From: an uncultured Erysipelotrichaceae bacterium
GTDB taxonomy: Bacteria > Bacillota_I > Bacilli_A > RFN20 > CAG-826
Assembly: GCA_902791935.1 (NCBI GenBank)
Contig: CADAXQ010000006.1
Coordinates: 8,129 to 72,128, forward strand
Direction of reading: 5' to 3'
Length of the DNA: 64,000 bases
Positions 3,982-56,180 of the stretch are shown here, one piece after another; the stretch's first letter is position 1, and each line of letters begins with the position of its first letter. The notes under the pieces are model-generated. The model saw only the letters and a program-made list of their open reading frames with translations, ran no database searches and was not told where the DNA came from. The translations under genes and the position numbers were made by a program.

Positions 3982-4518
3982 TTATTCCCTCCCTTTCGCG
4001 TCGGTTAACGCAGCGTCGACCGCCGTTTGCATGGCAACAGGCGTTTCTTGCACGGTTGCCCCGGTGACAACGACATCGGACGAGCCATCATAGCCGATGA
4101 AATCTTTGGTCGCCCGTGCCCAATTCGTGCCTTGATCGTCTTCGTTTGATTTCACGAAGGCATAGTAAGCGACGGCATCATTTTTAATGCCGATATCGAA
4201 CGTGACTTTGCCACCGAACCCCGTTGCGCTACGGCAACGATAGTAGAAGGCTTTGACGGACGTGTCAGGCAAATAGACGCGGTAACCATCAAGTAAGTAT
4301 GATTTCGAAGTAACGGTCGTCTCGTCAATGATTTTGGTGACACCGGTAGGAGCGTCATCTGCAAATAACGTGGCGACGACCTCAGGAACGGCATCGCCAG
4401 AAGGAACGCGCGCGGCAATGGCTGGGGCTGTCACTCCATAATAGATGCCGACGCTTGCCCCTACGGCTGCCACCGCAGCAAAGCAACAAACCAAGGCGGT
4501 TTTTCCAATTAAATTCAT
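3982..4518 (-). CDS. rnfG: Rnf complex subunit G (FMN-binding)
   Basis: N-terminal TM anchor plus an FMN_bind-like domain ending in SSDVVVTGATV (the Dxx(S/T)GAT flavinylation motif). Start trimmed to the ATG at 4516-4518, downstream of the rnfD stop. Confidence 0.8.
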   Translation of the reverse strand: MNLIGKTALVCCFAAVAAVGASVGIYYGVTAPAIAARVPSGDAVPEVVATLFADDAPTGVTKIIDETTVTSKSYLLDGYRVYLPDTSVKAFYYRCRSATGFGGKVTFDIGIKNDAVAYYAFVKSNEDDQGTNWARATKDFIGYDGSSDVVVTGATVQETPVAMQTAVDAALTDAKGRE

Positions 4519-52046: not shown

Positions 52047-52745
52047 TTACGAATGGGCAGGAATGGCGATATCGTGGTGGCTTGATGCATGGCGATTCAC
52101 GAAATAAAGAACAAGGGAAAGAATAGCGGTTAGGGCTTCGGCAATCGGGATGGATACCCATAACATTTCTTTTTGCTGAGTCAAAAGAGGAAGCAAAATG
52201 CCGAGCAAAACTGGGTAGAGAATGCCGTGAGAGAACGTGATCATGAAGGCTTTAATGGGGTTTTTCGATCGCTTGGAAATAGATGCCAAGGGGAATGCCG
52301 ATACCCATGATGAAATAAGCAGGGGAGTAATAACGCATGCAAGTCACTGAAATGGCAATCAAATCGGCATCTTGATCGGAGAAAACACGGATCAATGGTT
52401 TGGCAAAGATATAGCCGACAACGAAGAAGATGATGCCTAAAAGGACGGAAGTCATTAAAGCGTAGCGAAGACAACGTTGCTCCTTCTTTTCGGCTTTCTC
52501 CCCATAGCAAGGGAAATCAACGGCTGAGCAGCTTGGCCTACACCAGTCATCAAATTGAAGAATATCAACGACCAATTCATAATCATCGTGTAAATGGAAG
52601 AACCGATGGTCCCGTAATAACGATTGGCTTGTAAGATGAAAGCAAAAGTAACGATGGACATTGAGCTTTCTAATACGAATTCGCTGAAACCATTCCGAAT
52701 CACACGGAGAATCAGTTTAAAATCACGGAAAGGGAATGGGGAATG
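52047..52745 (-). pseudogene. MATE-family efflux transporter remnant (C-terminal half, frameshifted)
   Basis: Three overlapping ORFs in different frames together read like MATE TM7-12 (…GVGQAAQPLIS…). The reading frame upstream (FKLILRVIRNGFSEF) closes at 52749. The N-terminal half is absent. Confidence 0.6.
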
Positions 52746-52974: not shown

Positions 52975-53631
52975 TTAACGTTTCTTCTTTTTCGACTTGG
53001 CGTGACTGTAGTTTACAGTATGAATGATGTCATATTCGGTGGGCGCGGAGTGGAAGGAACGGATGTTCTGCACGTGTTCCTTTCGCGTTATTGTCGTAGA
53101 GCAGTCAGCTTTTTCGATTTGAGAACAAATCGCTAGAAACTGGGCTTCATTCCACGGCGGATTAACAGAAGAATGGGTGTCCATAAACTGCTTCAGATCT
53201 TGTGCATTGATAACTTTTTTACCATTATGAAGCGGTGAATTGTTTTCCGTCATGACCACAACGGGAATCACGTAGTTTTCCGTCCTTTTGTCGAGAATCT
53301 CTTCCAGCACCTTTTTATGCGTATCGTTTTGAAGGATGGGACTAGGGTGAGAACGGATGGTATGTTTTTCACCAAAGACCTGTCGCCAAGGTCCATCGTC
53401 TTCGAATCCATAGACCTTTCCTTTCCAGGTTTTATCTTCGATGCAGAAGACACCATTTCTTCGCACGATGATGCGATCGATTTCATGCGTTAAGTTCGGT
53501 ATTCCAAAAGGATCTTTGAAGATGACGTGATGGAAGATGCGTTGTTCGTTTTCTGGTTTGCTTTGCTTTGGATTGTCTTTCTTCCGAAACAATCGGCGAA
53601 AGAAATGAATGATTTTTTGAAATAGCTTCAT
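52975..53631 (-). CDS. NERD-domain protein
   Basis: EIDRIIVRRNGVFCIEDKTWKGKV matches the NERD nuclease-related core. GAGGAG RBS, and only 21 nt downstream of the preceding gene. Confidence 0.65.
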   Translation of the reverse strand: MKLFQKIIHFFRRLFRKKDNPKQSKPENEQRIFHHVIFKDPFGIPNLTHEIDRIIVRRNGVFCIEDKTWKGKVYGFEDDGPWRQVFGEKHTIRSHPSPILQNDTHKKVLEEILDKRTENYVIPVVVMTENNSPLHNGKKVINAQDLKQFMDTHSSVNPPWNEAQFLAICSQIEKADCSTTITRKEHVQNIRSFHSAPTEYDIIHTVNYSHAKSKKKKR

Positions 53632-53652
53632 GACGATTTTTTGCTTCTCCTC

Positions 53653-54717
53653 TTATAAATAGACACGTTTATTGATTTCCACCATGAAAGAATAGACGGG
53701 AAAAGGAGTGGGACGATCTAACGTCATCGCGCCAGAATATGGGAAATTCTCCGCATAGCTCAATCCGGTTGCGCGACAATATCGTTCTGCCAAATCTAAC
53801 AACAACGGAACTCGTTGCCCTTCGTTATAGCCAAAACACACATCGGGATAGGGTCCTTTTGTAAAGACATTGGCCATGTTTTCACCAAAAGAATGAAGAT
53901 CAATCAAAAGGCAAGGCAGGTTATCTTTTTGACAGACATCCATTACGGTTTGGTAAAGCGTTTCGTGGCAACGATCGTAATATGCCTTCGCTTCCTTCAT
54001 AAAAGCCGGGGTTTGTTGATGCAGCGTTCGGCCCCGATCGTCTTTCCGATATACCGCCCCCATTCCATAACGGGCCAAAGGTTCTTTGCTTTCGTCCCAA
54101 TATTTCTCCACGTCGCAATAAATTCTTGAATAAGGGGCAACGACTTTGGGATAAGGAAGAAAACGAACCAAATCAAGCAATAGAACATCGCCCATACGAA
54201 TCGCCGTTTCGATGGCTTCTTGCCGATGACGTTTTGCATCGAAACCATCGTAGAAAAGGCAATCGGTGAAAAAACTTTGCGGCAATTCCAAGGAAGCGTG
54301 AGGAATATGGAACACAATACGACCAAAAAGCGATTGCAAATCATCGACGAATTGGCCAAGATTGACATCGCGAAAGTAATCGTTCAAACCACGTTCTATG
54401 CGGGCCTGATGTTTCCCTTCGGCATCCAGGTCGAAATAGTGGCGGATGAAATCATCGACGCTCCAGCGTTTTAGCCCATAACCCATTCGGTAAGCCATGT
54501 CAATGTCAAACCAACGCCTCGAGATGGACGTTCCTTCGAAAGGGATAAGAAAACCATCCCTCGAATTCATGGGATTGTTTTCGCGTCTCTCGTAATAATT
54601 GGAATTGTAGATGGAATGCAAAAAACGCAACAATCGGATGCGCTCTTCTTGGCTTTTTACGTCCACCCAGTCGGCATCGGAATCATTTTTTGCTTTAAGA
54701 ATCGTGGATAAGTTCAT
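53653..54717 (-). CDS. N-formylglutamate amidohydrolase (FGase)-family-like protein with an extra N-terminal domain
   Basis: The C-terminal ~230 aa show FGase-like motifs (FHIPHASLELP, SRIYCDVEKY, LLIDLHSF, NFPYSG, VEINKRVYL). The N-terminal ~130 aa are unassigned. Confidence 0.45.
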   Translation of the reverse strand: MNLSTILKAKNDSDADWVDVKSQEERIRLLRFLHSIYNSNYYERRENNPMNSRDGFLIPFEGTSISRRWFDIDMAYRMGYGLKRWSVDDFIRHYFDLDAEGKHQARIERGLNDYFRDVNLGQFVDDLQSLFGRIVFHIPHASLELPQSFFTDCLFYDGFDAKRHRQEAIETAIRMGDVLLLDLVRFLPYPKVVAPYSRIYCDVEKYWDESKEPLARYGMGAVYRKDDRGRTLHQQTPAFMKEAKAYYDRCHETLYQTVMDVCQKDNLPCLLIDLHSFGENMANVFTKGPYPDVCFGYNEGQRVPLLLDLAERYCRATGLSYAENFPYSGAMTLDRPTPFPVYSFMVEINKRVYL

Positions 54718-54731
54718 TTCTTCCCTCCTTT

Positions 54732-54886
54732 AGCCATAAAAGAGAGAAGAAAAGCTCCCATCGCGGTGATGGGAGCTCATGCAGTTGTTTTCTCCCATCA
54801 TCCAAGCTTTGGCACCTTGCCTTCCTATAGGGAGGTAGGTTGTCGGCAGGTCTAAGGGCTTGTCCCTCGCTGCTCTCTTTATGGCT
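54732..54886 (-). promoter_or_regulatory. SAM-I-family (S-box, possibly SAM-I/IV-like) riboswitch candidate
   Basis: The minus-strand RNA is CCAUAAAGAGAGCAGCGAGGGACAAGCCCUUAGACCUGCCGACAACC...GGUGCCAAAGCUUGGAUGAUGG. It carries the S-box hallmarks AAGAGAG, GAGGGA, GCCC, CAACC and GGUGCCAA in the canonical order. There is no P4 hairpin at the usual place and P1 is short. It is followed by the terminator/antiterminator pair. Confidence 0.55.
54741..54777 (-). terminator. Terminator (expression platform of the riboswitch candidate)
   Basis: Minus strand: perfect 10-bp stem AGCUCCCAUC-ACCGC-GAUGGGAGCU followed by UUUUCUUCUCUCUUUU. The sequence UGAUGGGAG at 54792-54800 can pair with the 5' arm instead, acting as an antiterminator. 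Confidence 0.7.
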
Positions 54887-54891
54887 TAATC

Positions 54892-54921
54892 AATGTAAAA
54901 CAAAGCAAGAAGAGTTGTCAA
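54892..54921 (-). promoter_or_regulatory. Candidate promoter for the riboswitch leader
   Basis: Minus strand TTGACA-N18-TACATT. The -35 overlaps the stop codon of the antiporter gene. Confidence 0.4.
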
Positions 54922-56180
54922 GGGTTAGGAGAAGGGTCGTTCTTTTCTAAGGTTTCCTTTGCGTCGTCTGACAATAGATGGGGGGCCGTAAGACGTAACA
55001 AGATGGCGCCTAAAGGCGCGGTGAGCAAAATCGAAACCACGGAAACGGAAAGAACGATGATGCCCGATTGGACGATTGGTTCTGCGTTTGGAAGCTTTTG
55101 CGCCAGCATTTGATTGCCCAGATCGAGAAGACCTCCGCCGATGGCCGCTTGAACCGTGGCTTTTGGAAAATAGGAGAAAACAACAAAGGTGCGTTCTTTG
55201 AAATTAAGATTGGTACGGACCAAGCAAGAAGCAACCGCCAAACTGCGGAAAGACAAAGAAATTGTCAATAAGGCGATCGATAAAAAGAAATAACGGGAGG
55301 TGTATTCCATCCTCAAAGAAGCGCCGACGAGAAGGAAAAGAAACATTTCGGCAAGCACCCACATTTGATTGCCACGCTTTGCCAATCGGACGGCCCGTTC
55401 TTCTGCCTTTGCCTTGATGACGATACAAAGGGAAATGATGGCAAGCAATGAAGAAAAGCCAAACCATCGCGCCAAAAAATCTTCCAAGGCCGTAAGACCA
55501 AAGCCAATGCCGAAAATCAGGATGAGTTTCAAGGAGTCACGCAGAGAGATGTGAGCGAAAAGCAAGACGAGCAAAAAGCCGATTCCCACGCCTACAGCAA
55601 TGCCGCTAAAAATGGACAATGGGATATTAAGAAACGTCAAATATGAGACTTTTTCTCCTTTTTCTATGGTCATGAAGGCTTGATAGAAGACAATCATCAC
55701 AATGTCGTCAATGCTTGATCCAGCAATGATGAGCTGTGGGATTCCTTTCTTCGTTCCTCTTTTCTCATCCAATAATTTGCTCATTGCCGGCACAACCACG
55801 GCAGGAGATACGGCGCCTAAGACCGAACCTAAAAGAAAACTGTCGGTATAGGAAAGCGGGAAGAGCAGCAGTGCAAAAATGCCGACAGCGCACATTTCTA
55901 TGCATGCTGGGACGAAAGACATCAAAATCGCCGGTCTTCCTACTTTCTTCAGATCACTTAAATTCAAAGACAATCCCGCCTTTGAAAGGATGATGATCAA
56001 AGCGATTTTGCGAATTTGGCTAGAAATGGCCAAAATGGAATCGTCGATCAAACCAAGCCAGCCAAGCAAAATGCCAAATAAAAGGTAACCAATCAAGGCA
56101 GGCAGATGAAAATGTTCAAAGAGAACGTACAGGATGGCCCCACCTGCCATCATCAAAAACAAGCTAAGAAAAAGCGACAT
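54918..56180 (-). CDS. Cation:proton antiporter (Na+/H+ exchanger family)
   Basis: 420 aa with ~12 TM helices. The N-terminus (HLPALIGYLLFGILLG) and overall sequence are typical of CPA-type Na+/H+ exchangers. Confidence 0.8.
   Translation of the reverse strand: MSLFLSLFLMMAGGAILYVLFEHFHLPALIGYLLFGILLGWLGLIDDSILAISSQIRKIALIIILSKAGLSLNLSDLKKVGRPAILMSFVPACIEMCAVGIFALLLFPLSYTDSFLLGSVLGAVSPAVVVPAMSKLLDEKRGTKKGIPQLIIAGSSIDDIVMIVFYQAFMTIEKGEKVSYLTFLNIPLSIFSGIAVGVGIGFLLVLLFAHISLRDSLKLILIFGIGFGLTALEDFLARWFGFSSLLAIISLCIVIKAKAEERAVRLAKRGNQMWVLAEMFLFLLVGASLRMEYTSRYFFLSIALLTISLSFRSLAVASCLVRTNLNFKERTFVVFSYFPKATVQAAIGGGLLDLGNQMLAQKLPNAEPIVQSGIIVLSVSVVSILLTAPLGAILLRLTAPHLLSDDAKETLEKNDPSPNP

What the first reader, a model, noticed from the sequence alone, without database searches (positions are those of the whole stretch)
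52975..54921. SAM-I-family riboswitch candidate controlling an FGase-like hydrolase and a NERD-domain gene
Seen in the sequence: on the minus strand a TTGACA-N18-TACATT promoter is followed by a leader. The leader carries the S-box hallmark blocks in canonical order and spacing: AAGAGAG, GAGGGA, (A)GCCC, GACAACC, GGUGCCAA, then GAUGAUGG closing back onto CCAU. Next comes a perfect 10-bp terminator (54753-54777) with a U-rich tail. The segment UGAUGGGAG (54792-54800), which overlaps the P1 3' strand, can pair with the terminator 5' arm. That is the classic antiterminator/terminator logic. Two deviations from the model: there is no P4 hairpin between GGUGCCAA and the P1 3' strand, which recalls the SAM-I/IV and SAM-IV variants, and P1 is only about 4-5 bp. 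The regulated genes are unusual. One is a 354-aa protein whose C-terminal part looks like the N-formylglutamate amidohydrolase zinc-hydrolase family. The other, 21 nt downstream, is a NERD nuclease-related protein. Established knowledge: SAM riboswitches normally govern Met/Cys/SAM synthesis, salvage and transport genes, and neither family is a known member. Inference: the hydrolase might release methionine, or a methionine/SAM precursor, from an N-acylated or N-formylated compound. If so, this would be a new S-box regulon member.
Basis: partly seen in the sequence, partly recalled or inferred. Interest (0 to 1): 0.65.

Follow-up and report, generated by a model that had tools for sequence, protein, structure and literature searches.

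The report
P4-less SAM riboswitch gating FGase-like hydrolase
A genuine but pared-down S-adenosylmethionine (SAM) riboswitch sits in front of an amidohydrolase of unknown substrate and a nuclease-like gene, and relatives of that amidohydrolase carry SAM riboswitches of three different classes in several bacterial phyla, so it is an undescribed, recurrent member of the SAM regulon.

Summary
On the minus strand, 54792-54887 matches Rfam SAM-I end to end (35.1 bits; gathering score 44.4), with P4 deleted. It is followed by an 11-bp terminator, a 9-bp antiterminator option and a hairpin that buries the Shine-Dalgarno sequence (SD).

The sub-threshold score is outweighed by comparative evidence:
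- Near-identical leaders in relatives reach the gathering score.
- 27 distinct P4-less copies show compensatory changes in P2 and P3.
- The same aptamer precedes metK.

Of 38 genomic loci encoding relatives of the 354-aa FGase-fold protein, 18 carry a SAM-I or SAM-I/IV aptamer above threshold upstream on the same strand, and two more carry one below threshold. They come from Bacillota and Bacteroidota. NERD is only an occasional neighbour.

A segment just after the terminator pairs with the aptamer's 5' strand or with the SD. This suggests a double lock: termination plus translation.

The enzyme's substrate is unknown. No methionine gene was seen beside it in any locus examined. Several loci lie among restriction-modification, Abi and toxin-reversal genes, and the same leader also precedes unrelated unknown ORFs.

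Methionine salvage from N-acyl or N-formyl methionine is the most economical reading. A role in genetic conflict triggered by SAM depletion is not excluded.

The parts
54892..54921 (-). Sigma-70-type promoter: TTGACA, 18-nt spacer, TACATT. The predicted transcription start lies a few nt upstream of the P1 5' strand.
   Evidence: 10 of 12 matches. The identical sequence is kept in L073. Promoters in equivalent positions occur in L039 and L066. Function is inferred, not shown.
54792..54887 (-). SAM-I-type aptamer without P4. Elements: P1 54881-54884 with 54795-54798; P2a/P2b 54845-54875; P3 54811-54844; PK-1 strands 54859-54862 and 54803-54806.
   Evidence: Rfam RF00162, 35.1 bits, full-length match with P4 deleted. 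Class-specific model R1, 93.4 bits, the only copy in the window (this copy was in the training set). Covariation across 27 copies.
54873..54886 (-). Segment X: the P1 5' strand plus J1/2 (AGCCAUAAAGAGAG). It can pair with X' downstream instead of forming P1.
54792..54800 (-). Switching strand UGAUGGGAG. It either forms the P1 3' strand or pairs with the terminator's 5' arm (54767-54775) as an antiterminator.
   Evidence: Sequence. The truncated-transcript minimum-energy fold has the antiterminator. The same arrangement is present in all class-A leaders.
54742..54778 (-). Intrinsic terminator: hairpin 54752-54778 (11 pairs) followed by a U-rich tract at 54742-54751.
54718..54751 (-). SD-sequestering hairpin. 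Its 5' arm and loop contain X' (CUCUCUUUUAUGGCU, 54732-54746), which is complementary to X. Its 3' arm contains the SD (GGAGG, 54724-54728).
   Evidence: Minimum-energy folds. X:X' duplex -16.3 kcal/mol against -6.3 +/- 1.9 for shuffles, p = 0.002. X' recurs in most class-A and all five class-B leaders tested.
53653..54717 (-). 354-aa protein: an N-terminal ~130 aa of unknown fold plus an FGase-fold (PF05013) amidohydrolase domain.
   Evidence: Candidate catalytic and metal-binding residues are invariant in 24 homologues.
52975..53631 (-). 218-aa NERD-domain protein. It starts 21 nt after the hydrolase gene with its own SD and no intervening terminator, so it is presumably co-transcribed.
   Evidence: The D...EDK motif (HEIDRIIV...CIEDK) is read directly from the translation.

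Best explanation
The leader is a SAM-sensing OFF riboswitch of the SAM-I type that has lost helix P4.

Proposed mechanism:
- Transcription starts just upstream of P1.
- When SAM is bound, the short P1 (4 bp) is held closed. The strand UGAUGGGAG is then unavailable, so the 11-bp terminator forms and most transcripts end at the U-tract, around 54742-54751.
- When SAM is scarce, UGAUGGGAG pairs with the terminator's 5' arm and RNA polymerase reads into the 354-aa FGase-like gene and the NERD gene.
- A second layer follows. The pyrimidine-rich segment after the terminator (X') can pair with the SD, which blocks translation. Alternatively it pairs with the free P1 5' strand plus J1/2 (X), which leaves the SD open.
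- So only transcripts made with an unliganded aptamer are both full-length and translatable. This is a double lock.

The conserved cargo of this switch is the FGase-fold amidohydrolase, not NERD.

What is shown:
- the sequence elements and their alternative pairings;
- membership of the aptamer in a covarying P4-less class that also precedes metK;
- recurrent linkage of FGase-like genes to three classes of SAM aptamer.

What is inferred:
- SAM binding;
- the direction of regulation;
- the two-tier logic;
- the enzyme's role.

For the enzyme's role, my best guess (about 0.45) is hydrolysis of an N-acyl or N-formyl methionine-type amide to supply methionine when SAM is low. A conflict-related role gets about 0.25. 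The rest is open. The confidence value given for this explanation applies to the RNA switch and its link to the FGase-like gene, not to the enzyme's role.
For: Aptamer identity:
- RF00162 matches at full length, 35.1 bits, E = 2e-6.
- Co-linear leaders in relatives reach the gathering score: L003 45.5, L005 47.7, L009 55.6, L040 47.0, L043 46.7, L044 47.4.
- In 27 distinct P4-less aptamers, 95.6% of cells are paired, against 24-47% when partners are slid. Eleven pairs show compensatory changes against 5.3 +/- 1.4 in shuffles, with 0 of 500 shuffles reaching the observed value.
- The positions equivalent to G11 and G58, which hold SAM's methionine moiety (PMC2770654), are invariant.
- The same aptamer and platform precede metK (L055, L065), an MFS transporter and an ECF S-component.

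Linkage to the FGase-like gene:
- 18 of 38 FGase-homologue loci have a SAM-I or SAM-I/IV aptamer at or above the gathering score, upstream on the same strand.
- Sub-threshold copies occur in L002, L008 and L039.
- Further loci: L040, L043, L044, L049, L050 and L073.

Expression platform:
- Terminator.
- The antiterminator is the minimum-energy fold of the truncated transcript, and the alternative states lie within about 3 kcal/mol of each other.
- X:X' pairing is far stronger than in shuffles: 10 of 12 class-A and 5 of 5 class-B FGase leaders at p <= 0.01, and most non-FGase leaders of the class, including metK.
Against: - The window's own copy is below Rfam's gathering score.
- P1 is only 4 bp, and it never varies across the class. 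PK-1 is nearly invariant too (a single G-U change). Neither helix therefore has covariation support.
- No binding or termination experiment exists. Metatranscriptome contigs only show that the locus is represented in RNA libraries.
- The leader copies are closely related, so conservation of X' within a class could partly reflect common descent. The independent support is class A against class B, plus a few compensatory changes.
- MFS-gene leaders of the same class lack X'.
- One close relative (L001) has lost the riboswitch yet keeps the genes.
- For the methionine-salvage role: no methionine or SAM gene was seen next to the FGase-like gene in any locus examined. Many neighbours are restriction-modification, Abi or toxin-reversal genes.
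Confidence: 0.8

Rival explanations
1. The RNA switch works as described, but the cargo is conflict-related rather than metabolic. Falling SAM serves as an alarm, for example when a phage SAM lyase or a competitor's toxin attacks the SAM pool, or when methylation by a neighbouring restriction-modification system is about to fail. De-repression then turns on the FGase-like hydrolase, NERD and other small island genes, which act as back-up defence, toxin-reversal or self-protection functions.
For: - FGase-like genes with the riboswitch lie beside AIPR, DNA methylases and HNH (L040), type I/IIG R-M genes and HAD_SAK_2 (L043), MvaI_BcnI plus a methylase, NERD and DUF4238 (L044), and a C5 methylase (L050).
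- A (p)ppApp-hydrolase-like gene (PDB 7SMG, E = 6e-9) lies directly upstream of the riboswitch in three locus types.
- An ADP-ribosylglycohydrolase and a Macro-domain protein lie downstream in L003.
- PP2C and DUF3293 share the riboswitch-controlled gene string in Flavobacteriia.
- The same leader precedes unrelated unknown ORFs next to GmrSD (L053) and next to a C5 methylase with a putative restriction enzyme (L066).
- NERD is adjacent to the FGase-like gene in the window, L001 and L073 on one hand and in L002 on the other, in different arrangements and with only 26% identity.
- Phage SAM lyases that defeat SAM-dependent defences are documented (PMC7877911; bioRxiv 10.1101/2023.02.27.530186, listed).
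Against: - No PADLOC model matches the FGase-like protein. NERD gives only weak N-terminal matches to PglW and MkoA.
- Class-B and riboswitch-less loci have mostly housekeeping neighbours.
- The same riboswitch class controls metK and transporters, which is ordinary SAM-regulon content.
- Accessory genes of any function tend to collect in islands.
- From my own knowledge rather than a source checked here, every characterised SAM-riboswitch target is metabolic.
- The cassette shows no compositional anomaly in the window.
- Carriage on phages or plasmids is essentially nil.
Confidence: 0.25
2. The P4-less aptamer no longer senses SAM. It would bind a related compound such as SAH or another SAM derivative, or it would be a decaying relic that leaves only a constitutive attenuator.
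For: - The score is below the gathering score.
- P4 is missing and P1 is short.
- Many unusual downstream genes follow this aptamer.
- L001 dispenses with it altogether.
Against: - The class is under purifying selection with compensatory changes.
- The positions equivalent to G11 and G58 are invariant.
- From my recollection of the SAM-I crystal structure, the remaining pocket positions (the A-U and U-A pairs of P1, and GACA/UGCC of P3) are also kept.
- It precedes metK, the most diagnostic SAM-regulated gene.
- Standard SAM-I (~69 bits) and SAM-I/IV aptamers control the same gene family elsewhere.
- SAM-IV also functions with a 4-bp P1 and no P4 (PMC6890682).
Confidence: 0.07
3. The resemblance to an S-box is chance. 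The leader would be just a promoter, a terminator of the upstream exchanger gene, and an SD hairpin.
For: - Promoter-like and terminator-like motifs are common in the region: 6 found against 3.5 expected, and 5 against 2.7.
- No SAM hit appears at the gathering score in the window.
Against: - Full-length model match with E = 2e-6.
- About 30 homologous copies with covariation.
- Conserved position in front of the same gene family across phyla.
Confidence: 0.02

Closest known systems
SAM-I riboswitch / S-box leader (Rfam RF00162, clan CL00012)
   Same: - P1; P2a/P2b with a kink-turn-like internal loop (tandem G-A pairs and a 3-nt bulge).
- PK-1 pseudoknot between the P2 loop (CAAG) and J3/4 (CUUG).
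- P3 with the GACA/UGCC base and a bulged A; the J1/2 sequence AAGAG.
- Terminator/antiterminator platform that switches on the P1 3' strand.
- Also found upstream of metK.
   Different: - P4 is absent: J3/4 runs straight into the P1 3' strand, giving a three-way rather than a four-way junction.
- P1 is only 4-5 bp.
- The window copy scores below the gathering score.
- There is an extra conserved pairing between the aptamer's 5' strand and a post-terminator anti-SD segment.
- The downstream genes are largely non-canonical.
SAM-IV (RF00634) and SAM-I/IV (RF01725) riboswitches
   Same: - No P4 inside the junction.
- A SAM-I-like ligand core.
- SAM-IV also has a 4-bp P1 (PMC6890682).
- SAM-I/IV aptamers control homologues of the same FGase-like gene in Flavobacteriia.
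   Different: - SAM-IV has a P5 hairpin 3' of P1 and a PK-2 pseudoknot between the P3 loop and the 3' tail.
- SAM-I/IV has an undivided P2, lacks PK-1 and has a P4 helix (PMC6890682).
- Here P2 is divided and PK-1 is present. No P5 or P4 follows P1. P3 loops vary with no conserved complement in the 3' tail.
- Rfam's best clan match at this site is SAM-I.
N-formylglutamate amidohydrolase, HutG (Pfam PF05013; PDB 2Q7S, 2ODF)
   Same: - Pfam match at 97.5 bits.
- The only confident fold matches are 2ODF and 2Q7S (Foldseek E ~1e-7, target-normalised TM ~0.6).
- His, Asp and Glu positions are invariant across homologues.
   Different: - Only 16-21% identity to the solved structures.
- No hut genes nearby.
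- Extra N-terminal ~130 aa, shared only with L003 and L049 types and with the close relatives P0001, L001 and L073.
- SAM-riboswitch control.
- No NCBIfam equivalog. The substrate is unknown.
Riboswitches that act at two levels (my own recollection, for example E. coli lysC; not checked in a paper here)
   Same: One aptamer appears to gate two steps of expression.
   Different: Here the two proposed levels are intrinsic termination and SD sequestration. They are linked through the P1 5' strand acting as an anti-anti-SD. This is predicted from sequence only.

Membership tests
SAM-I riboswitch (RF00162) | Covariance-model score at or above the gathering score (44.4 bits) | tested here: not met
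   The window copy scores 35.1 bits and its near-identical copy in L073 scores 35.2. Sister leaders of the same class do pass: L003 45.5, L004 44.8, L005 47.7, L006 45.0, L009 55.6, L010 60.5, L040 47.0, L043 46.7, L044 47.4.
SAM-I riboswitch (RF00162) | Helices P1, P2 (P2a/P2b) and P3 supported by base-pair conservation and covariation | tested here: met
   95.6% of cells are paired. Compensatory changes occur in 3 of 5 P2a pairs, 1 of 3 P2b pairs and 7 of 10 P3 pairs. P1 is invariant, so it is neither supported nor contradicted.
SAM-I riboswitch (RF00162) | PK-1 pseudoknot between the P2 loop and J3/4 | tested here: inconclusive
   CAAG and CUUG are complementary in all 27 copies (100% paired, one G-U variant), but no change on both sides occurs.
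SAM-I riboswitch (RF00162) | P4 helix closing a four-way junction | tested here: not met
   The 18 model positions of P4 are replaced by 1 nt. The same is true in all 27 copies of the class.
SAM-I riboswitch (RF00162) | Ligand-contact nucleotides kept: G11 in J1/2 and G58 in P3 (PMC2770654). From my recollection of the crystal structure, also the A-U and U-A pairs of P1 and the A.U of P3. | tested here: met
   Alignment columns 11 (G), 78 (G), 6-7 with 93-94 (A-U, U-A) and 47 with 77 (A-U) are invariant. Equivalence of the numbering is my own mapping.
SAM-I riboswitch (RF00162) | Binds SAM and discriminates against SAH | not testable with these tools
   Needs in-line probing or ITC.
SAM-I riboswitch (RF00162) | Occurs upstream of methionine or SAM metabolism genes | tested here: met
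   The same P4-less aptamer and platform precede metK in L055 and L065, and precede MFS and ECF-S transporter genes. The window's own cargo is not a known methionine or SAM gene.
SAM-IV riboswitch (RF00634) | P5 hairpin after P1, and a PK-2 pseudoknot between the P3 loop and the 3' tail (PMC6890682) | tested here: not met
   P3 loops differ among copies with no matching change 3' of P1. A CUCCC/GGGAG complementarity exists only in the window and L073. SAM-I is the best clan hit.
SAM-I/IV riboswitch (RF01725) | Undivided P2, no PK-1, and a P4 helix outside the junction (PMC6890682) | tested here: not met
   P2 is divided by an internal loop and PK-1 complementarity is present. What follows P1 is a linker and then the terminator.
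Intrinsic (Rho-independent) terminator | G+C-rich hairpin directly followed by a U-tract | tested here: met
   54778-54752: 11 pairs, 6 of them G-C, 5-nt loop, tail UUCUUCUCUC preceded by UU.
FGase family (PF05013) | Profile match above Pfam's cut-off, and the FGase fold | tested here: met
   97.5 bits against 28.9. The model has pLDDT ~85-95 over the domain. The top Foldseek hits are 2ODF and 2Q7S only.
HutG, N-formylglutamate deformylase of histidine utilisation | Genomic association with hut genes, or an equivalog-level match | tested here: not met
   No NCBIfam equivalog. Neighbours are a Na+/H+ exchanger, NERD, a MatE remnant and a DUF438 protein. No hut genes were seen in the related loci whose neighbours were annotated.
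NERD domain (PF08378) | Profile match above the cut-off | tested here: met
   69.4 bits against 22.1.
Known anti-phage defence systems (PADLOC-DB 2.0) | Match of the proteins to a model of a described system | tested here: not met
   The FGase-like proteins give no hit. NERD gives only weak partial matches to the N-termini of PglW and MkoA.

The most novel reading that the evidence does not exclude
A SAM riboswitch is used as an immune or 'guard' sensor. A portable P4-less SAM-I leader with a double lock (terminator plus SD sequestration) keeps a varied set of island genes silent. These include the FGase-like hydrolase, the NERD nuclease-like protein, the 'CPW-motif' proteins and other unknown ORFs. 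The leader releases them when the cellular SAM pool collapses, as happens when a phage SAM lyase or a competitor's toxin attacks it, or when a neighbouring restriction-modification system is at risk of under-methylating the host's own DNA.
Probability: 0.15. Interest if true: 0.9.

Novelty: new variant of a known kind. Interest (0 to 1): 0.6.

Why it matters
1. A whole subclass of SAM-I aptamers works, or at least is conserved, as a three-way junction without P4. Members scatter around Rfam's threshold, so annotation pipelines will miss some of them, as happened in this window.

2. It adds a new, phylogenetically broad member to the SAM regulon. This is an FGase-fold amidohydrolase whose link to SAM is kept through three different aptamer classes, which argues that its function is tied to SAM or methionine status. 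That makes the substrate question directly testable. N-formyl-methionine deformylation is an obvious candidate.

3. The same leader in front of many unrelated unknown genes in restriction-modification and Abi neighbourhoods is unlike any SAM regulon that I know of. It raises the possibility that metabolite riboswitches gate conflict genes.

4. The conserved pairing between the aptamer's 5' strand and the anti-SD segment suggests a compact way to couple termination control with translational control.

Tried and rejected
- **Whole-window Rfam scan at gathering score:** no SAM hit. The match only appears with permissive filters.
- **SAM-IV or SAM-I/IV assignment:** rejected. There is no P5, no external P4 and no conserved PK-2. 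The CUCCC/GGGAG complementarity between the P3 loop and the 3' flank is limited to the window and L073.
- **N-terminal extension as a fusion of a neighbouring gene:** no similarity between the hydrolase's N-terminal ~130 aa and the small genes that precede it elsewhere. That part of the AlphaFold model has low confidence.
- **Conserved operon partner:** none. Neighbour clusters have at most 4 members.
- **Phage carriage:** 0 hits for two aptamer patterns and 1 for a third in IMG/VR. There are no PHROG matches for the FGase-like protein or the other cargo ORFs; NERD matches one PHROG of unknown function. One distant hit among 50,697 phage records.
- **Plasmid carriage:** only distant classical FGases on Rhodococcus plasmids.
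- **PADLOC:** nothing for the hydrolase.
- **Literature:** no paper holds 'SAM riboswitch' together with 'N-formylglutamate amidohydrolase'. Only two irrelevant papers hold 'riboswitch' and 'formylglutamate'. None of the papers listed holds both 'SAM riboswitch' and 'SAM lyase'.
- **Metatranscriptomes:** shallow contigs cover the leader and both coding regions. They carry no strand, end or depth information usable for regulation.
- **X:X' pairing in SAM-I/IV leaders:** not found in the last 75 nt before the start codon. Complementary segments seen by eye lie closer to the aptamer and were not analysed further.
- **Compositional island test in the window:** negative.


Full report
**1. What is in the window**

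On the minus strand, the Na+/H+-exchanger-like gene ends at 54918. It is followed by these elements:
- a promoter-like site: TTGACA at 54921-54916, an 18-nt spacer, and TACATT at 54897-54892;
- a 170-nt leader;
- a 354-aa ORF at 54717-53653;
- 21 nt later, a 218-aa ORF at 53631-52975.

The first protein matches FGase (PF05013) at 97.5 bits over residues 133-354. The second matches NERD (PF08378) at 69.4 bits.

Rfam finds no SAM family in the window at gathering thresholds. With permissive filters, the SAM-I model aligns over its whole length to 54887-54792. The score is 35.1 bits against a gathering score of 44.4, with E = 2e-6 for the 331 nt searched. The 18 model positions of helix P4 are collapsed to a single nucleotide.

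A terminator lies at 54778-54752, with 11 pairs and a U-rich tail. After it comes a second hairpin at 54751-54718 that buries the Shine-Dalgarno sequence (SD).

**2. Is the sub-threshold aptamer real?**

Three lines of evidence say yes.

First, homologous leaders exist. The FGase-like protein has few relatives: 40 in the protein search. I fetched 38 genomic loci that encode them. Rfam at gathering thresholds finds a SAM-I or SAM-I/IV aptamer upstream on the coding strand in 18 of the 38. Copies just below threshold occur in L002 and L008. Further loci reached through individual proteins or a DNA pattern also have one: L039, L040, L043, L044, L049, L050 and L073.

The leaders fall into three classes:
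- Class A: the window's P4-less SAM-I, in Erysipelotrichaceae, other Bacilli and Bacteroidales.
- Class B: an AT-rich full SAM-I with P4, scoring about 69 bits.
- Class C: SAM-I/IV, in Flavobacteriia and relatives.

Second, covariation. I collected 27 distinct P4-less aptamers. On the SAM-I architecture minus P4, 95.6% of cells are paired, against 24-47% when the 3' partners are slid by 1-3 columns. Eleven pairs carry compensatory double changes, against 5.3 +/- 1.4 in shuffles. These lie in P2a, P2b and P3. P1 never varies, and the PK-1 pseudoknot varies only by one G-U change, so neither is supported nor contradicted by covariation.

Third, the same aptamer and platform precede metK, the textbook SAM-riboswitch target, in L055 and L065. 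They also precede an MFS transporter and an ECF S-component.

In addition, the positions equivalent to G11 and G58 are invariant. These hold the methionine moiety of SAM in SAM-I (PMC2770654).

**3. Which class of SAM riboswitch?**

The best clan match is SAM-I. According to PMC6890682:
- SAM-IV lacks P4 but has a P5 hairpin and a PK-2 pseudoknot.
- SAM-I/IV has an undivided P2, lacks PK-1 and has a P4 helix.

The window's RNA differs from both. It has a divided P2 with a kink-turn-like loop and PK-1 complementarity (CAAG with CUUG). No hairpin follows P1 before the terminator. There is no conserved complement to the P3 loop. It is therefore a SAM-I reduced to a three-way junction.

Its P1 of 4 bp (5 bp with a U-G pair in most copies) is short. 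PMC6890682 reports that P1 of SAM-IV also has four pairs.

Members of this subclass score from 35 to 60 bits with RF00162. They straddle the curated threshold, so some are missed by standard annotation.

**4. Expression platform**

UGAUGGGAG (54800-54792) overlaps the P1 3' strand and is complementary to the terminator's 5' arm (54775-54767). On the transcript truncated before the terminator's 3' arm, the antiterminator is the minimum-energy fold.

On the full leader the competing conformers are nearly isoenergetic:

| Conformer | Energy (kcal/mol) |
|---|---|
| P1 + terminator + SD hairpin | -62.2 |
| Antiterminator | -61.4 |
| X:X' pairing with terminator | -61.3 |
| Antiterminator + X:X' | -59.6 |

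This is the classic OFF-switch design, and it is kept in all class-A leaders.

The segment just after the U-tract, X' (CUCUCUUUUAUGGCU, 54746-54732), is complementary to the aptamer's own 5' end, X (AGCCAUAAAGAGAG, 54886-54873). X is the P1 5' strand plus J1/2. X' also forms the 5' arm of the SD hairpin.

The X:X' duplex is -16.3 kcal/mol in the window, against -6.3 +/- 1.9 for shuffles. The pairing is significant (p <= 0.01) in:
- 10 of 12 class-A leaders and 5 of 5 class-B leaders of FGase-like genes;
- most leaders of other cargo, including metK.

Class A and class B have different X sequences (UCCAUAAAGAGAG against ACAUUAUCAAGAG) with matching X' sequences. That is class-level covariation. 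MFS-gene leaders lack X'.

My reading, which is inference only, is as follows. When the aptamer is unliganded, X is free to capture X' and the SD stays open. When SAM locks X into P1 and J1/2, any transcript that leaks through the terminator still has its SD sequestered.

**5. What is regulated?**

The conserved cargo is the FGase-like gene.
- It is the first gene after the aptamer in most loci. In several Flavobacteriia it sits inside a string of small unknown genes that also includes PP2C and DUF3293 proteins.
- NERD is adjacent only in the window, in its close relatives L001 and L073, and in L002. In L002 it lies upstream of the riboswitch and is only 26% identical.
- NERD homologues at 50-57% identity stand alone without any aptamer.

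Among close relatives of the window's organism, which comes from bovine and sheep gut or rumen:
- L073 keeps the riboswitch behind a remnant of the exchanger gene.
- L001 has had everything upstream of the U-tract replaced.

**6. What does the enzyme do?**

The structure model is confident for the catalytic domain. It matches only the two FGase-family structures 2ODF and 2Q7S. Candidate catalytic and metal-binding residues are invariant in 24 homologues. There is no equivalog-level family match, and no hut genes were seen nearby.

The neighbourhoods are highly variable. I did not see a methionine or SAM gene next to the FGase-like gene in any locus.

Riboswitch-bearing class-A loci are often in island-like settings:
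- AIPR, DNA methylases and HNH (L040);
- type I/IIG R-M genes and HAD_SAK_2 (L043);
- MvaI_BcnI plus a methylase, NERD and DUF4238 (L044);
- a C5 methylase (L050);
- a (p)ppApp-hydrolase-like gene just upstream (L003/L049, L040/L057, L051);
- an ADP-ribosylglycohydrolase and a Macro-domain protein downstream (L003).

The same leader also precedes unrelated unknown ORFs. One is next to GmrSD (L053) and another is next to an HTH-C5-methylase (L066). No Pfam or PHROG family matches these ORFs.

Against a defence reading:
- The class-B and riboswitch-less loci have mostly housekeeping neighbours.
- PADLOC has no model for the enzyme.
- The cassette is not on sequenced phages or plasmids.
- It shows no compositional anomaly in the window.

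**7. Judgement**

That the RNA is a SAM-responsive OFF switch, and that the FGase-like gene is a genuine, recurrent SAM-riboswitch target, I hold at about 0.8.

This is hydrolysis of an N-formyl or N-acyl methionine-type amide, or a similar reaction that feeds the methionine/SAM pool. It fits the chemistry of the family, the one-gene unit and the logic of known SAM regulons. I give about 0.25 to a conflict-related role in which SAM depletion is the trigger. The remainder is open.

I found no paper linking SAM riboswitches with this enzyme family or with SAM-lyase sensing. The library searched is limited to open-access papers.

**8. Novelty**

The aptamer is a variant of a known class: SAM-I without P4. 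The terminator/antiterminator logic is ordinary. Three things appear to be new:
- the breadth of the link to an FGase-fold hydrolase;
- the unusual, partly island-borne cargo of this leader;
- the conserved 5'-strand/anti-SD pairing.

None of these has been tested experimentally.

Noticed in passing
L001:1-135 compared with window 54700-54960 (minus strand): In a MAG whose hydrolase is 90% identical, homology to the window begins exactly at the terminator's U-tract. Everything upstream (promoter, aptamer, terminator stem) is replaced by unrelated sequence ending in another terminator-like hairpin. The riboswitch has therefore been lost or swapped in a close relative, while X' and the SD hairpin remain.
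   Followed up: yes
L073:2440-2912: Another close relative keeps the riboswitch (35.2 bits) but has only the 3' remnant of the Na+/H+ exchanger gene upstream. It also lacks the MatE remnant downstream of NERD. The flanks of the cassette are being remodelled between strains.
   Followed up: partly
window 52252-52703 (minus strand): Overlapping ORF fragments in different frames match MatE (PF01554; 41.9 and 17.9 bits). This looks like a frameshifted or truncated MATE efflux pseudogene directly downstream of the NERD gene.
   Followed up: partly
L052:3507-3592 and 4035-4120; L029:150-252 and 1081-1183: Two SAM aptamers occur in tandem transcription units on one contig. In L052 two P4-less SAM-I copies precede a 96-aa unknown ORF and an ECF S-component gene. 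In L029 two SAM-I/IV copies precede the FGase-like gene and then unknown 235-aa and 347-aa ORFs.
   Followed up: partly
L040:5128-5787; L003:3-398; L049:91-747; L051:1268-1909: A 219-aa protein resembling a (p)ppApp / small alarmone hydrolase (PDB 7SMG, E = 6e-9; no Pfam hit) lies directly upstream of the riboswitch in three kinds of locus. The riboswitch's cargo differs among them: a short FGase-like gene, an FGase-like gene with the N-terminal extension, or an unrelated 113-aa ORF.
   Followed up: partly
L053 (276 aa), L064:695-1507, L059 (~145 aa), L066:1614-1931: An unannotated protein family shares a C-terminal motif (roughly GxCPWxF...GxxGxC...F..I..IY). It sits behind the same P4-less SAM-I leader in several metagenome contigs. 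It has no Pfam or PHROG match.
   Followed up: partly
L004:3120-3672 (minus strand): A ROOL RNA (RF03087, 202.5 bits) lies about 130 nt upstream of the SAM riboswitch and FGase cassette in a Bacilli MAG.
   Followed up: no
L031:1364-6701 and L030:2170-6121: In Flavobacteriia a SAM-I/IV aptamer heads a same-strand string of small unknown genes plus a PP2C phosphatase, the FGase-like gene and a DUF3293 protein. None is a recognisable methionine or SAM gene.
   Followed up: partly
window 54826-54830 and 54792-54796 (minus strand); also in L073: The window's unusually long P3 loop contains CUCCC, which is complementary to the GGGAG immediately 3' of P1. This pairing would resemble PK-2, but it is not conserved in other copies of the class.
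   Followed up: yes
L009:1422-2186: The FGase-like gene is split into two adjacent ORFs (82 and 171 aa). This is either a frameshift pseudogene or an assembly error.
   Followed up: no
L038:881-2134: A SAD/SRA plus NOV_C protein, an architecture that suggests a modification-dependent nuclease, lies upstream of a class-B riboswitch and FGase cassette.
   Followed up: no
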